This document shows positions 42,001 through 45,000 of a stretch of DNA of 59,077 nt, piece after piece; positions within the stretch are counted from its first letter, which is position 1, and every line of letters starts with the position of its first letter. A program made the position numbers. This DNA comes from a virus (taxonomy: Duplodnaviria; Heunggongvirae; Uroviricota; Caudoviricetes), in the IMG/VR virus record IMGVR_UViG_2690316267_000014; one strand, 5' to 3'.

Positions 42001-45000
42001 TCGCGTAATTCGTTTTTTTCAATTTTAAAGTAATGCTTTCCGGGCATGAATCGCGTCGTGTTGTTCAGAAAGTTATCAGAAATGTTTTTGATTTTTGTTC
42101 CGTAAAGGTGAGCCAACAGTTCAGTAGTAATTACGGGGATCTGGTTATAGGTAACAGGGGAAAGGTTTTCGACAGAAATTTGAACAGCCATAATGACCTC
42201 GCGTTTCGATAATTTTTACCTCGCCACCGTCAGGTGCTAATCATCGTGGTGGCGAACTGTGCGGGGTTAGCACTACCGGTCGAAACATCCGGCGAGCCTT
42301 TCGGCTCCCCCACACAGCCCGCCATAAATCGCGAATGTGACTGTGCTTAGCGCATAAAAAAACCGCCAGCGCGGTTATGCACCGTTTCGATATCCGGGGT
42401 GCTAATCCCGACGCCAGGTCTTGCTGGCGCGTGAGGAATATAGCCCCGAACACGCGACGTTGTCAAACTGATGGCATTGCAGATCCCTACGCAATGTAAC
42501 ACTATGTGTTATACATTAATAACGGAACAAAAAATGCGCATTTTTAAAAACGCCTGGTTTGAGCGATTTGCACGCAAAACAAAATATCCGACCAATCACT
42601 GCGCGAAATTGTTAAACAGGCTGATAACGGGCTTATCTCAGCAAACCTGGGTAACGGCGTTATCAAGCAACGTCTGCCACGAGTCGGTGGCGGCAAATCT
42701 GGCGGTTATCGCACAATCATTTTCTATCGCGTCGGCACAAGGGCCTTTTTCGTATATGCATACGCAAAAAATGAACGTGAAAATATAACCGCTACTGCGG
42801 AAAGTGCATTTCGGAAGGCGGCTCCTCACGTACTCAATCTAACAGATGAACAACTGGCACAACTGATTCTACAGGGTCAGTTTACGGAGGTACCCAATGA
42901 GTAAAAATTACCGCAGTGATGCGCTTGCATCCGTACATGAAATGATGGAATCGCTTCATGATATCGGCGCAGTAACGAAACAGACTATGCGAGAATTCGA
43001 TGAAACTTGTCTCCAGCCAGCGCCGGTAATGTCTCCGGAAAGGATCCGTGCACTGCGCGAACGAGAGCATCTGTCTCAACCTGTTTTTGCCAGATACCTC
43101 AACGTCAGTAAAAACCTGATATCAGACTGGGAACGTGGTGTAAAACGGCCGGGAGGTGCCGCTCTTCGCCTTCTTTCAGTCGTAGAGAAAAACGGGATCC
43201 AGGTAATATCATGATACTCCAATACAACAAAACCCGCCGAAGCGGGTTTTCATTAGAAGCACCTTTAGTTTTGCTGTTCTATTTTAAGCTTGATAGTTTC
43301 ATACAAAACAATAGTTGCGCCTGTTTTACATAATTCCCGGCTGTCATACGCACGAGACCAATAACACAACCAGTTCTCGAGATCTTCTCGAGTATAGGTT
43401 TTGCAGGCCAGTCCCTCTGCCATTTCCACGATTTCATCGCCTGGTGCTGTTAACTCATAGCCATTCAACAACAAGAAGACATAACCAGCCATCATAGCTG
43501 TTCGTTTGTTTGCATTAGCAAATGGATGATTCTGAATCAGACTTTCAATCAATACTGATGCCAGTACAAACATGTCATTAGTCTGTTCATACCATCGAAC
43601 CATGCTGGGACGAGACTGAGAAGAACTTAAATTATCAACACTCAGCACACTAACAGGTTCATCTGGTGTTTGAAGCTCAATTAAAAGGCGATTAATTTCG
43701 GTAAGATCATCAAACGAAAGGTAGTGCACTCCTTCAACAATCTCAGCCATAGAGCACAATACCCATCATTACACTTTTGAAAGTTCTTCCATTGCCTTCT
43801 CGTAACGAGAAAAACCGAAATCGAAAGCATTTTTCACCTGCTCACGATGAGTGCAATTTTCATCGATAGCCGGGCGCGGAGCTGCCACAACGCTTTTATC
43901 GCGAGGGGGAATAGTCAATCGCGGGTGTTTTTTTAGTGCGTAGCTCATTGGGTGTACCCTTACTTCTCCGTCCTGTTCTTTAACAAAAATCAAGTCAATA
44001 CAAAATTAGTCAGGCTAATGTTGTTAGCATAGCCTAATACCAATCGTATTCACAACCACAGTAAGTGAAAAAACCCGCCGAAGCGGGTTAAGTGCGGGTG
44101 CGTTGAGGATGCCTGACACATCAGAGGTGGCGAGGGATTTCTCCCTCGCCTGGTCTCTTACTCCTCAGGTTCGTAAGCTGTGAAGACAGCAACCTCCGTC
44201 TGACCGGTTCGGATTCGTACCTCGCAGAGGTCTTTCCTCGTTACCAGTGCCGTCACTACGACGGTAATACAGATGACGATCAGGGCGACTAACATCGCCT
44301 TTTGCTGCTTCATAGCCTGCTTCTCCTTGCCTTTCGGCGCGTAAGAGGCTAACCTACATGTGTCTAGCATGAAATTGGCCTCAGATTAATGTTAGGCGTC
44401 TTGCAGGACGCGTAATGTTAACTGGGGCTTTTCTCTGTCTGCCTTACGGTGGCATGCCCGAGGCAGACAGCCTCAAGCACCCGCAGCAATTCTACTTAAC
44501 TCTCGCTTTACCGCAAACCGTTTTTACCCGATATGGGAATTCCCATATCGTAATGAATTCAGTTCCCTAGTCGATCCATCAAAAACACAACCAGGCAGTA
44601 AACGCCCACAACAGCAATAACAGCCAGCGCACCTTCCATTGCCAGTGATATATCATCCGACATATTCCCTCCTTTGGTGTTAATCCCGGCGAACGTTTTT
44701 ACCCCCACCGACAAATAACATATACTAAAAAGGTGATAGCCATAGCAACGCCTGTAATTGCAAATGCTTCAGGCCAGTTCATTGGCGCACCTCCTGCGGC
44801 GGTTCTGGTAGCGGCATCCAGTCGGTTACATTGCGGCTCTGTGTTTCGAAAAATTCATCACCATCACGGACTACATCAAAAAACTCACCGTCTCGATATT
44901 GCGCATAAAGAACGAATGCGCCATCACATAAAATAATTACGTGCTGACCGTCATCCGGCATTCGCTCACTACAGCTTATCCAACCATCCAGAGTTACCGG

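What the first reader, a model, noticed from the sequence alone, without database searches (positions are those of the whole stretch)
44158..44790. Hok locus with a run of strongly initiated small membrane peptides and a perfect palindrome
Upstream of a canonical Hok toxin (44158-44313) are two unannotated small ORFs with strong RBS and hydrophobic cores: 34 aa (44559-44663, AAGGAGGG RBS) and 27 aa (44699-44782, ATGA-coupled to the DUF551 gene). An 18-bp perfect palindrome atatgggaattcccatat lies at 44532-44549. The expected Sok-like antisense RNA could not be delineated by eye.
Basis: partly seen in the sequence, partly recalled or inferred. Interest (0 to 1): 0.4.

Follow-up and report, generated by a model that had tools for sequence, protein, structure and literature searches.

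The report
Prophage hok/sok toxin locus with neighbours
This is an ordinary, already characterised kind of prophage toxin-antitoxin locus (hok/mok/sok) preceded by two real but tiny membrane-protein genes, and the striking palindrome is most likely a leftover scrap of another phage gene, not a control site.

Summary
On the minus strand lies a complete hok/mok/sok type I toxin-antitoxin module, 96% identical in its leader to the experimentally studied hokW-sokW of phage 933W/Sp5.

Both small ORFs are genuine genes.
- **p34 (44559-44663):** already in RefSeq as a hypothetical protein and was detected by ribosome profiling in O157 Sakai (XECs145). dN/dS is 0.18. It has no relatives outside E. coli phages and almost always sits just upstream of hok.
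- **p27 (44699-44782):** not annotated in ten records inspected. It belongs to a family of at least 449 phage copies, nearly all 27 codons long, with dN/dS 0.22. Its start overlaps or abuts the stop of whatever gene precedes it, and it occurs with or without hok.

The same string encodes D-MGIPI-S in intact KilA-N domain genes of many phages. It is absent from functional hokW, so it is best read as a roughly 35-bp gene relic at a mosaic junction.

Overall this is a new member of a known kind, of modest interest.

The parts
44158..44313 (-). hok toxin CDS (51 aa; PGAP name 'HokD'; 86% identical to HokW of 933W)
   Evidence: Pfam HOK_GEF 83.9 bits, E 5.6e-24. phrog_251 'MokW-like host killing' E 1.8e-32. 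RefSeq WP_197687434.1 in ML35. tblastn identity to 933W 86%.
44158..44370 (-). mok reading frame (70 aa), an in-frame N-terminal extension of hok that starts inside the Sok target
   Evidence: ORF list. Same arrangement as the annotated mokW/hokW of 933W.
44066..44482 (-). Predicted full-length hok mRNA. 5' end GGGUGCUUGAGG (tac, 44471-44482); fold-back partner CCUCAACGCACCC (fbi, 44096-44108); terminator hairpin 44072-44089 plus U-run.
   Evidence: Rfam RF01794 match 44308-44482 on the minus strand, 116.9 bits against gathering 59; it starts at GGGUGC and ends at the hok AUG. The MFE fold pairs the first 12 nt with 44096-44108, -179.3 kcal/mol, z -6.5. Terminator found by the scan.
44489..44516 (-). 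Predicted hok promoter: -35 TTGCGG (44511-44516), 16-nt spacer, -10 TAGAAT (44489-44494), 6 nt before the mRNA 5' end
   Evidence: Own hexamer scan. The block GAGTTAAGTAGAATTGCTGCGGGTGCTTGAGG is nearly invariant in 60 unique hok loci. Inferred; no transcription start site data.
44362..44432 (+). Sok antisense RNA (71 nt): single-stranded 5' tail over the mok start codon, long hairpin, GGGGCUUUU terminator tail
   Evidence: Gapless alignment to 933W, where sokW is annotated at the corresponding bases. Fold -32.9 kcal/mol, z -6.3. sokW is experimentally an antitoxin RNA of 71 nt (PMC8621323). The 5'-tail region 44359-44378 is the most variable stretch of the leader among 60 unique loci.
44327..44355 (+). 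sok promoter: -35 TTGCCT (44327-44332), 17-nt spacer, -10 TAACCT (44350-44355)
   Evidence: Identical to 933W over these bases. Takada 2021 abolished sokW expression by mutating this -10; primer YO-421 replaces AGGTTAGCC.
44529..44550 (.). 22-bp perfect palindrome CGATATGGGAATTCCCATATCG. On the plus strand it reads D-M-G-I-P-I-S followed by two stop codons, then I-Q-F.
   Evidence: position, uniqueness. The same 18/22-mer lies inside intact KilA-N genes. 31/33 nt identity to one such gene. RNA hairpin of 9 bp with an AAUU loop, no U-tract.
44519..44529 (.). Direct repeat copy 1 (CGTTTTTACCC), hok-proximal; it abuts the -35 side of the hok promoter
   Evidence: two exact copies 175 bp apart, 0.02 expected.
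44694..44704 (.). Direct repeat copy 2 (CGTTTTTACCC), overlapping the p27 stop codon. Together the repeats bracket a 175-bp p34 + palindrome cassette that 933W-type loci lack.
   Evidence: and the alignment.
44559..44663 (-). p34: 34-aa single-helix membrane protein gene (MSDDISLAMEGALAVIAVVGVYCLVVFLMDRLGN), SD AAGGAGGG at 44667-44674
   Evidence: RefSeq WP_001278450.1. Translated in O157 Sakai as XECs145, RCV 4.35, coverage 0.99 in LB. dN/dS 0.18. Orphan family. Followed by hok in 128 of 131 loci.
44699..44782 (-). p27: 27-aa single-helix membrane protein gene (MNWPEAFAITGVAMAITFLVYVICRWG). The ATG overlaps the DUF551 stop (ATGA); SD AGGAGG at 44790-44795.
   Evidence: 92 phage records, 449 IMG/VR copies. 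27 codons in nearly all copies, motif M-x-W-P-[ED]-A...C-R-W-G. dN/dS 0.22. Coupled to at least 7 different upstream C-termini.
44779..45363 (-). DUF551 domain gene whose stop codon overlaps the p27 start
   Evidence: Pfam DUF551 E 1.1e-20. RefSeq WP_000206792.1.

Best explanation
The region is the 3' end of an early (nin-region) gene block of a lambdoid prophage. It is read on the minus strand and contains four separable modules.

1. **A complete hok/mok/sok type I toxin-antitoxin cassette.** A weak promoter (44489-44516) makes a roughly 415-nt hok mRNA (44482 to about 44066). Its 5' end folds back on its 3' end, keeping it translationally silent. Hok (44158-44313) can only be translated through the overlapping mok frame. 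The 71-nt Sok RNA (44362-44432, + strand) pairs with the mok initiation region and blocks this. When Sok disappears, Hok is made and damages the inner membrane. For the close homologue hokW-sokW this was shown to happen on prophage induction and to speed phage release.
2. **p27.** A 27-residue single-helix membrane protein gene, translationally coupled (ATGA) to the DUF551 gene. It is a portable, protein-level-conserved module found at the end of many different Ea/DUF551-type genes in Escherichia/Shigella phages, independently of hok.
3. **p34.** A 34-residue inner-membrane protein gene with its own strong ribosome-binding site, translated in lysogens, restricted to E. coli phages. It travels with hok as its immediate upstream neighbour. 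Its function is unknown. Most likely it is an independent membrane-acting accessory ('moron') gene, not a required part of the toxin-antitoxin mechanism.
4. **The 22-bp palindrome.** A roughly 35-bp remnant of a KilA-N domain gene (codons D-M-G-I-P-I-S on the + strand) left at a recombination junction. The 175-bp p34 + palindrome segment is an insertion/deletion polymorphism bracketed by 11-bp direct repeats.

**Shown here:** sequence anatomy, homology, folds, selection signatures. **Shown by others on homologues:** Hok toxicity, Sok antitoxin activity, the sok -10 element, p34 translation. **Inferred:** transcript ends of hok, p27 translation, functions of p27 and p34, the relic status of the palindrome.
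For: **hok/sok**
- Pfam HOK_GEF E 5.6e-24.
- Rfam RF01794 116.9 bits on the hok-sense strand, from the mRNA 5' end to the hok AUG.
- Gapless 96% alignment to 933W, placing annotated sokW at 44362-44432 with an identical promoter.
- Sok fold z -6.3.
- Full-length mRNA MFE closes 44471-44482 onto 44096-44108.
- Experimental characterisation of hokW-sokW, including -10 mutagenesis.
- The variability peak sits exactly on the Sok 5' tail.

**p27**
- 92 phage records at 52-67% amino-acid identity.
- 449 IMG/VR copies.
- 29 unique full-length alleles with dN/dS 0.22, against 0.8-2.5 in four of the five other frames and 0.36 in the antisense frame that shares its wobble positions. Third-position diversity 0.37 against 0.17 and 0.12.
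- The start overlaps or abuts the stop of at least 7 unrelated C-termini, each with a Shine-Dalgarno-like motif.
- Homology ends at its stop codon in at least 6 different downstream contexts.

**p34**
- RefSeq CDS.
- RIBOseq XECs145: translatome RPKM 346, RCV 4.35, coverage 0.99; predicted inner membrane, 1 TM helix.
- dN/dS 0.18.
- A 29-codon, GTG-started relative at about 63% nucleotide identity sits in the same position upstream of hok in five phages with different upstream neighbours. It has a conserved TTGAAT-17-CATATT promoter whose spacer varies.

**Palindrome**
- The identical 18/22-mer lies inside at least 10 intact KilA-N genes (Pfam E down to 1e-24), where it encodes DMGIPIS.
- The window + strand reads DMGIPIS**IQF, and PPompW phages read DMGIPISE*IQF, against SELIQSF in KilA-N. 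31/33 nt identity.
- Absent from the 933W, pPE4 and Tritos hok loci.
- Natural variants carry one-sided changes with no compensation.
- Direct repeats.
Against: - No transcript-end data exist for this strain. The hok and sok promoters score poorly against the sigma-70 consensus, and the generic scan missed both.
- p27 has no direct translation evidence. It fell below the 93-nt length floor evident in the novel-gene list of the Sakai RIBOseq study, and several lineages carry disrupted alleles: an amber codon at codon 3 (including a second copy in this window at 4373-4456), W26 to stop, and loss of the start frame.
- The p34-hok linkage (128/131 loci, two lineages) is tighter than an 'independent moron' reading predicts.
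- The KilA-N relic claim rests on only about 35 nt. Profile tests of the flanking translations against KilA-N were not significant. A perfect 22-bp palindrome kept in hundreds of prophages could still have acquired a function.
Confidence: 0.75

Rival explanations
1. p34 is a functional third component of phage-borne hok cassettes. It would be a small inner-membrane protein, or the act of transcribing and translating it across the hok promoter, that modulates Hok production or Hok action (immunity, co-toxin, or promoter occlusion).
For: - p34 is followed by hok at a fixed distance (about 250 nt to the hok ATG) in 128 of 131 loci with enough flank.
- A diverged p34-like ORF (about 48% amino-acid identity) sits immediately upstream of the hok promoter in Tritos, Evi, mEp460_ev081, HannyBb and L076, despite different upstream neighbours. 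It has its own conserved promoter and no terminator before the hok promoter.
- It is translated in uninduced lysogens.
Against: - hokW-sokW of Sp5/933W lacks p34 and works as a toxin-antitoxin system.
- PPompW-type loci keep hok and the palindrome but have lost p34.
- L058-L060 keep p34 without hok.
- Linkage can simply reflect a short distance inside one mosaic module.
Confidence: 0.15
2. The palindrome is a functional element. It could be an RNA hairpin that insulates the hok promoter from upstream read-through or protects the p34 mRNA 3' end, or an operator for a dimeric DNA-binding protein controlling hok.
For: - Perfect 22-bp symmetry, unique in the window.
- It lies 8 nt after the p34 stop and 12 nt upstream of the hok -35, centred at about -57.5 relative to the predicted hok start.
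- Stable hairpin in context: -22 kcal/mol, z -3.9.
- Retained next to the hok promoter in three different upstream contexts.
Against: - No U-tract on either strand, so it is not an intrinsic terminator.
- Absent from functional hokW and from Tritos-type cassettes.
- Five natural variants break the symmetry on one side only, with no compensatory change.
- No second copy or half-site enrichment in the prophage (14 found, 14.1 expected).
- The same string occurs as ordinary coding sequence in KilA-N genes.
Confidence: 0.25
3. p27 and/or p34 are themselves type I toxins with their own, so far unseen, antisense RNAs, making the region a tandem array of small-toxin modules.
For: - Size, hydrophobic helix and strong ribosome-binding sites resemble type I toxins.
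- Two promoter-like matches lie on the plus strand opposite them, at 44639-44666 and 44698-44726.
- The neighbourhood is rich in toxin-antitoxin systems.
Against: - The promoter-like matches are at chance level: 2 found against 0.9 +/- 1.3 expected. The one opposite p34 lies in N-terminal codons that the Tritos-type relative lacks.
- No Rfam match even at E up to 1.
- p34 is well translated in growing lysogens (RCV 4.35), which is unlike a repressed toxin.
- The arabinose-driven hokW-sokW insert of Takada 2021 begins 6 nt before the p27 homologue's ATG and caused no growth defect.
Confidence: 0.05
4. The small ORFs are chance open frames in non-coding spacer, and their conservation is only DNA relatedness.
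For: - Both are very short.
- p27 is missing from annotations and from a 15-billion-protein collection.
- No family match in Pfam, NCBIfam or PHROGs.
Against: - Frame-specific excess of synonymous change for both.
- Length and motif conserved at 52-67% amino-acid identity.
- Module boundaries coincide with the start and stop codons.
- Ribosome footprints on p34.
Confidence: 0.05

Closest known systems
hokW-mokW-sokW of Stx2 phage 933W / Sakai prophage 5 (type I toxin-antitoxin; Takada et al. 2021, PMC8621323)
   Same: - Same gene order and strand logic.
- Hok 86% identical.
- Leader, sok promoter and Sok hairpin align without gaps at 96% identity.
- A p27 homologue lies directly upstream in both.
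   Different: - Here the cassette lies in the nin region after the replication genes, not in the attR-proximal region.
- A 175-bp p34 + palindrome segment is inserted between p27 and the hok promoter.
- 6 of the 17 bases of the Sok 5' recognition tail differ, so cross-regulation with SokW is doubtful.
hok/sok (parB) of plasmid R1, the founding member (Gerdes laboratory; recalled from established literature)
   Same: - Hok/Gef toxin.
- Overlapping mok.
- Short antisense Sok with a 5' single-stranded tail and stem-loop.
- 5'-3' fold-back (tac/fbi) of the mRNA, reproduced in the MFE fold.
   Different: - Only about 44% amino-acid identity is reported between HokW and R1 Hok.
- It sits in a prophage rather than a plasmid, so post-segregational killing is not the obvious role.
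- In R1, no upstream small membrane-protein genes are described (from memory, not tested here).
XECs145, a 'novel small gene' of E. coli O157:H7 Sakai (Huecker et al. 2017, PMC5597208)
   Same: It contains the same 34-residue sequence as p34. It was reported as transcribed and translated, predicted inner membrane with 1 TM helix.
   Different: That study annotated a longer 54-aa frame from an upstream ATG. In this window the upstream in-frame start is only a TTG, and the strong Shine-Dalgarno serves the 34-aa start. The link to hok was not noted in the supplementary tables consulted.
KilA-N domain genes of phages (Pfam PF04383)
   Same: The 22-bp palindrome and about 11 further bases are identical or near-identical to the codons for D-MGIPI-S-E-L-I-Q in such genes.
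   Different: No KilA-N reading frame survives here: two stop codons follow the motif, and profile searches of the flanks are not significant.
Small single-helix membrane proteins encoded at operon ends and translationally coupled, such as KdpF, CydX, AcrZ-type regulators (recalled from the literature, as an analogy only)
   Same: Size, one hydrophobic helix, a start overlapping the preceding stop codon, and under-annotation.
   Different: No sequence relationship was found, and no partner protein is known for p27 or p34.

Membership tests
hok/sok type I toxin-antitoxin system | Hok/Gef family toxin of about 50 aa with an N-terminal transmembrane helix | tested here: met
   Pfam PF01848 83.9 bits against a cutoff of 22. 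Hydrophobic window 8-24.
hok/sok type I toxin-antitoxin system | Overlapping mok reading frame starting upstream of hok within the antisense target | tested here: met
   70-codon ORF 44158-44370. Same layout as annotated mokW. Its requirement for hok translation is not testable here.
hok/sok type I toxin-antitoxin system | Cis-encoded short antisense RNA with its own promoter and terminator, complementary to the mok initiation region | tested here: met
   44362-44432 (+) corresponds base for base to annotated, experimentally verified sokW. Fold z -6.3. The -10 is identical to the element mutated by Takada 2021.
hok/sok type I toxin-antitoxin system | Long-range pairing of the mRNA 5' end (tac) with a 3' element (fbi), and a conserved leader structure | tested here: met
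   MFE of 44066-44482 pairs nt 1-12 with 44096-44108. Rfam covariance model 116.9 bits.
hok/sok type I toxin-antitoxin system | Toxicity of Hok and neutralisation by Sok | not testable with these tools
   Shown only for the 86%-identical HokW/SokW.
Intrinsic (rho-independent) terminator, considered for the palindrome | G+C-rich stem-loop immediately followed by a U-run | tested here: not met
   The 9-bp stem is followed by GGGUAAAAAC on the minus strand and UAAUGAAUUC on the plus strand. It was not reported by the terminator scan.
KilA-N domain gene, considered for the palindrome region | Significant match of a reading frame to the KilA-N profile | tested here: not met
   No Pfam hit for stop-masked translations. 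Custom flank profiles scored at null level. Only a roughly 35-nt identity remains, so it is a fragment, not a member.
Bona fide small protein gene (p34) | Ribosome-binding site, frame-specific purifying selection, and direct evidence of translation | tested here: met
   SD AAGGAGGG. dN/dS 0.18 against 0.8-3.2 in the other frames. RIBOseq RCV 4.35, coverage 0.99.
Bona fide small protein gene (p27) | Ribosome-binding site, frame-specific purifying selection, and direct evidence of translation | tested here: inconclusive
   SD-like motif and stop/start overlap in all contexts. dN/dS 0.22. No ribosome-profiling or proteomic evidence was found, and some alleles are disrupted.
Type I toxin (p27 or p34) | Overlapping or adjacent antisense RNA that represses the peptide's translation | tested here: inconclusive
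   No Rfam hit. The plus-strand promoter-like sites are at chance frequency. No RNA data available.

The most novel reading that the evidence does not exclude
p34, a ribosome-profiling-supported orphan membrane peptide, is an unrecognised protein component of phage-borne hok cassettes. It is kept immediately upstream of the hok promoter in two lineages that differ at about 37% of nucleotides, it has its own promoter, and no terminator precedes hok. Either the peptide or its transcription across the hok promoter would tune when Hok is released during lysogeny or induction. In addition, p27 would be a previously undescribed, widespread 27-residue phage membrane protein family.
Probability: 0.12. 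Interest if true: 0.6.

Novelty: new member of a known kind. Interest (0 to 1): 0.3.

Why it matters
The hok/sok part adds nothing new beyond one more prophage copy, in a different genomic slot from the studied hokW. Three by-products have some value.

1. **p27.** It is a conserved, almost never annotated 27-residue membrane-protein family: at least 449 copies in viral contigs, found in temperate lambdoid phages, P1-like phages and at least one virulent phage. It illustrates how many small phage genes remain invisible to annotation. The published hokW-sokW expression construct unknowingly began at its start codon, so the construct carried p27 as well.
2. **p34.** It shows very tight linkage to hok and is translated in lysogens, which gives a cheap, testable question about whether phage hok cassettes have a protein accessory.
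3. **The palindrome.** It is a caution. A perfect 22-bp palindrome next to a promoter can be a fossil of a coding motif (KilA-N 'DMGIPIS') at a mosaic junction rather than an operator.

Tried and rejected
- **The search for homologous proteins with the 34- and 27-aa peptides.** Worked around with the 51-aa TTG-extended frame, tblastn and pattern scans.
- **The search for related loci on genome contigs with the p27 alignment.** Replaced by a degenerate DNA pattern, which also returned two chance hits (L180, L181, both with stop codons) and two tiny contigs in Xanthomonas and Acinetobacter assemblies that look like contamination.
- **Family searches.** Pfam, NCBIfam and PHROGs gave no family for p27 or p34. 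An exhaustive HMMER search found no p34 relatives beyond its own cluster.
- **Hypothesis that the whole p34 ORF is overprinted on a decayed KilA-N gene** (by eye: 'YI..RC.AG..RLL..FD..ELNSLR-DMGIPIS'). Rejected: no Pfam hit, and custom upstream and downstream KilA-N profiles scored at the level of shuffled controls.
- **Palindrome as a repeated operator.** Rejected: no other copy with up to 3 mismatches, and half-sites at chance frequency.
- **Palindrome as a terminator.** Rejected: no U-tract.
- **Generic sigma-70 scan.** It missed both the hok and sok promoters, so it carries no weight for or against a p34 promoter. A relaxed scan gives only a weak candidate inside p27: TTGCTA-15-TAGTAT, 44722-44748.
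- **Literature searches.** Searches for the peptide sequences and accession numbers found nothing.
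Full report
**Where the window comes from.** Bases 43900-44900 are 100% identical to the chromosome of E. coli ML35 and 99.7% identical to O104:H4 outbreak strains. RefSeq annotation of that stretch shows a lambdoid prophage read on the minus strand. In order it has replication genes, DUF1627, DUF977, DUF551, a 34-aa hypothetical protein, hokD, a 59-aa protein plus a Doc-family toxin, a RelE/HTH pair, ORF6N, ninB and ninE. The finding therefore lies in the nin region, downstream of the early rightward operon.

**Checking the observation.** All features are present.
- Hok is 44158-44313 (-): Pfam HOK_GEF E 5.6e-24, phrog_251 'MokW-like host killing'.
- The 34-aa ORF is 44559-44663 (-), with AAGGAGGG ending 3 nt before the ATG.
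- The 27-aa ORF is 44699-44782 (-). Its ATG overlaps the TGA of the DUF551 gene, with AGGAGG 7 nt upstream.
- The palindrome core is at 44531-44548, one base left of the stated position. It extends to a perfect 22-mer at 44529-44550, unique in the window even with 3 mismatches (0 expected).
- The 34-aa ORF is annotated in RefSeq (WP_001278450.1), so 'unannotated' is wrong for it. The 27-aa ORF is unannotated in ML35, and its exact sequence is not in a 15-billion-protein collection.

**The hok/mok/sok module.**
- Rfam RF01794 matches 44308-44482 on the minus strand with 116.9 bits against a gathering score of 59. The match begins at GGGUGCUUGAGG and ends at the hok AUG. What this 157-position model recognises is therefore the hok-mRNA leader strand. 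The real Sok must be on the plus strand.
- Phage 933W carries annotated hokW, mokW and a 71-nt sokW. Window 44300-44500 aligns to it without a single gap at 96% identity. This places Sok at 44362-44432 (+), with -35 TTGCCT (44327-44332), a 17-nt spacer and -10 TAACCT (44350-44355).
- The -10 is the element Takada et al. mutated to silence sokW: primer YO-421 replaces AGGTTAGCC.
- The predicted Sok folds into a 5' single-stranded tail, a long hairpin and a GGGGCUUUU tail (-32.9 kcal/mol, z -6.3). The tail covers the mok start codon (44368-44370).
- The hok promoter is inferred as TTGCGG-16-TAGAAT (44489-44516), 6 nt before the leader's first base.
- The 417-nt transcript, ending at the terminator at 44072-44089, folds so that its first 12 nt pair with 44096-44108. 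This is the tac/fbi fold-back typical of hok mRNAs (z -6.5).
- Among 60 unique homologous loci, the most variable part of the whole transcript is 44359-44378, exactly the Sok recognition tail. There 25-27% of sequences differ from the window base, against 0-14% in every other 10-nt block of the leader. This fits rapid divergence of antisense specificity.
- Takada et al. (PMC8621323) showed for the homologue that HokW is toxic and that sokW RNA neutralises it. They also showed that prophage induction removes sokW RNA, lets HokW accumulate in the inner membrane, and doubles phage release.
- In this window the cassette lies downstream of the early operon in the same orientation. Read-through after induction would therefore converge on the sok promoter. 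That this is the trigger is my inference, not a result.

**p27 (44699-44782).**
- tblastn finds it in 92 phage records at 52-67% identity. A pattern scan finds 449 confirmed copies in IMG/VR.
- In the fetched loci it is 27 codons long in nearly every case, with the pattern M-[NTS]-W-P-[ED]-A-...-C-R-W-G.
- Its start overlaps (ATGA) or abuts (TAATG/TGATG) the stop of the preceding gene. Those genes end in at least seven unrelated C-terminal sequences: DUF551-type, 933W L0139-type, and others in ArgO145, Av-05, a plasmid, SJ46 and L092. Each has a Shine-Dalgarno-like motif 7-10 nt upstream.
- Downstream, homology stops at its stop codon and continues into at least six different contexts: p34, the hok promoter, xis/int-side sequence, and others.
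- Across 29 unique full-length alleles, dN/dS is 0.22 in frame. It is 0.81 and 1.75 in the other sense frames and 0.36-2.5 in the antisense frames. Third-position diversity is 0.37, against 0.17 and 0.12.
- Among one-genome-per-species representatives, it occurs only in Escherichia and Shigella. It also occurs in the P1-like Salmonella phage SJ46.
- It is not annotated in any of ten records inspected.
- Some alleles are broken: W26 to stop in 19 loci, amber at codon 3 in POCJ13, and loss of the start frame in L107.
- There is no direct evidence of translation. The one relevant RIBOseq study lists no ORF shorter than 93 nt.
- The arabinose-driven hokW-sokW insert of Takada et al. starts 6 nt before the p27 homologue's ATG (primer YO-432) and was not toxic when Sok was intact.

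**p34 (44559-44663).**
- Relatives are confined to E. coli (78-100% identity). An exhaustive HMMER search of 1.84 billion representatives finds nothing beyond this cluster.
- dN/dS is 0.18 in frame, against 0.79 and 3.2 in the other frames.
- Huecker et al. 2017 found it translated in O157:H7 Sakai as XECs145. In LB, transcriptome RPKM was 79.1, translatome RPKM 346.1, ribosome coverage value 4.35 and coverage 0.99. In BHI the values were 121.3, 150.1, 1.14 and 0.84. It was classed as inner membrane with one helix. It is therefore expressed in uninduced lysogens.
- Of 131 p34-containing loci with enough downstream sequence, 128 have hok. In nearly all of these the distance to the hok ATG is 247-251 nt. 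One carries an IS-sized insertion, and three have lost hok.
- A diverged relative (29 codons, GTG start, about 48% amino-acid and 63% nucleotide identity) lies about 215 nt before the hok ATG in phages Tritos, Evi, mEp460_ev081 and HannyBb, and about 195 nt before it in contig L076.
- These five have different upstream neighbours. All keep a promoter-like TTGAAT-17-CATATT whose hexamers are conserved while the spacer varies. There is no terminator before the hok promoter.
- However, 933W/Sp5, pPE4 and PPompW-type hok loci lack p34, and hokW-sokW works without it.
- I conclude that p34 is a real small membrane-protein gene that travels with hok. Whether it acts on hok is open; I give that 0.15.

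**The palindrome.**
- It sits 8 nt after the p34 stop and 12 nt upstream of the hok -35.
- It is not a terminator, because no U-run follows it.
- It is not a repeated operator.
- It is absent from the 933W, pPE4 and Tritos hok loci.
- Natural variants change one arm only.
- Scanning viral contigs for the 18-mer gave at least 120 loci. Of the 80 examined, 38 have unrelated flanks. In at least ten of these it lies inside an intact KilA-N domain gene (Pfam E 1e-19 to 1e-24), where it encodes D/N-M-G-I-P-I-S/L. Codon choice alone makes that stretch palindromic.
- On the window's plus strand the palindrome reads DMGIPIS, then two stop codons, then IQF. PPompW phages read DMGIPISE*IQF. Intact genes read DMGIPISELIQSF. 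Nucleotide identity to one such gene is 31/33.
- Profile tests of the flanking translations were not significant. Only about 35 nt of KilA-N sequence survives, and my by-eye idea that p34 is overprinted on a KilA-N remnant is rejected.
- I read the palindrome as a gene fossil at a mosaic joint (about 0.55), with a secondarily acquired hairpin or operator role as the main rival (0.25).
- The 175-bp segment holding p34 and the palindrome is bracketed by exact 11-nt direct repeats, CGTTTTTACCC, at 44519-44529 and 44694-44704 (0.02 expected). 933W-type loci have one copy, joining the p27 stop codon directly to the hok promoter. The segment is therefore an insertion/deletion polymorphism.

**Comparison and verdict.**
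- The module meets every sequence-testable defining feature of hok/sok (see the membership table). Its closest relative is hokW-sokW. It differs in genomic position, in the Sok recognition tail, and in the p34 + palindrome insert.
- p34 equals the published XECs145.
- p27 appears undescribed in the literature searched, but it is a small-gene annotation gap rather than a new kind of system.
- The finding as a whole is a new member of a known kind. Interest 0.3.

Noticed in passing
window 4373-4456 (+), after the DUF551/EaA-like ORF 3450-4376 (+): A second p27 copy in the same window, again ATGA-coupled to a DUF551 protein, but with TAG at codon 3 (MT*PEAFAIVVAAISIALIVFAICRWG). Shigella phage POCJ13 carries the same amber codon. 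No hok follows it.
   Followed up: partly
window 16393-16533 (-): A second, divergent Hok/Gef family ORF (46 aa; Pfam HOK_GEF 33.2 bits against a cutoff of 22). No Rfam sok match lies nearby at the gathering threshold.
   Followed up: partly
window 42566-43948: Two more toxin-antitoxin-like pairs lie directly downstream of hok: a 59-aa phrog_2208 protein plus a Fic/Doc toxin (43265-43948, -), and a RelE/ParE toxin plus an HTH protein (HTH at 42897-43214, +). That makes three toxin-antitoxin systems in a row in the nin region.
   Followed up: partly
window 39035-39240 (-), 42245-42329 (-), 42356-42430 (-), 53971-54029 (+), 814-899 (+): Rfam matches above the gathering threshold: STnc100, C4 antisense RNA, IsrK, the lambda cIII thermoregulator and sRNA-Xcc1. 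The hok 3' UTR (44068-44149) also gives a sub-threshold IsrK-like match (31 bits).
   Followed up: no
window 44701-44710 (run of G before the p27 stop codon); proteins P0004, P0008, P0009: Some database proteins are 74-aa in-frame p27-p34 fusions. They are explained by a one-base length change in the run TGGGGGTAA at the end of p27. This could be natural slippage or sequencing error.
   Followed up: no
L186-L264 (viral contigs carrying ATATGGGAATTCCCATAT): The 'MGIPI' motif of KilA-N domains is encoded by an exactly palindromic 18-mer in very different viruses (G+C 22-66%, including giant-virus MAGs). In several genes the flanks extend the symmetry (GAATTA...TAATTC). Whether this DNA symmetry inside KilA-N genes has a function of its own was not examined.
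   Followed up: no
PMC8621323, primers YO-432/YO-433; L001 2945-3022: The published pBAD18-hokW-sokW construct begins 6 nt upstream of the p27 homologue's ATG. The unannotated p27 gene was therefore part of the 'hokW-sokW' insert used in the toxicity and antitoxin assays.
   Followed up: partly
L033 (IMG/VR contig) 1961-3057: One p27-p34-hok locus has a roughly 1.1-kb insertion in the hok leader near the hok ribosome-binding site. This is reminiscent of the IS-inactivated chromosomal hok loci of K-12.
   Followed up: no
L178 (Xanthomonas pisi, 431-bp contig), L183 (Acinetobacter idrijaensis, 369-bp contig): Tiny contigs in non-enterobacterial assemblies carry E. coli-phage-type p27 sequences (933W-like and P1-like). 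This is probably contamination of those assemblies.
   Followed up: no
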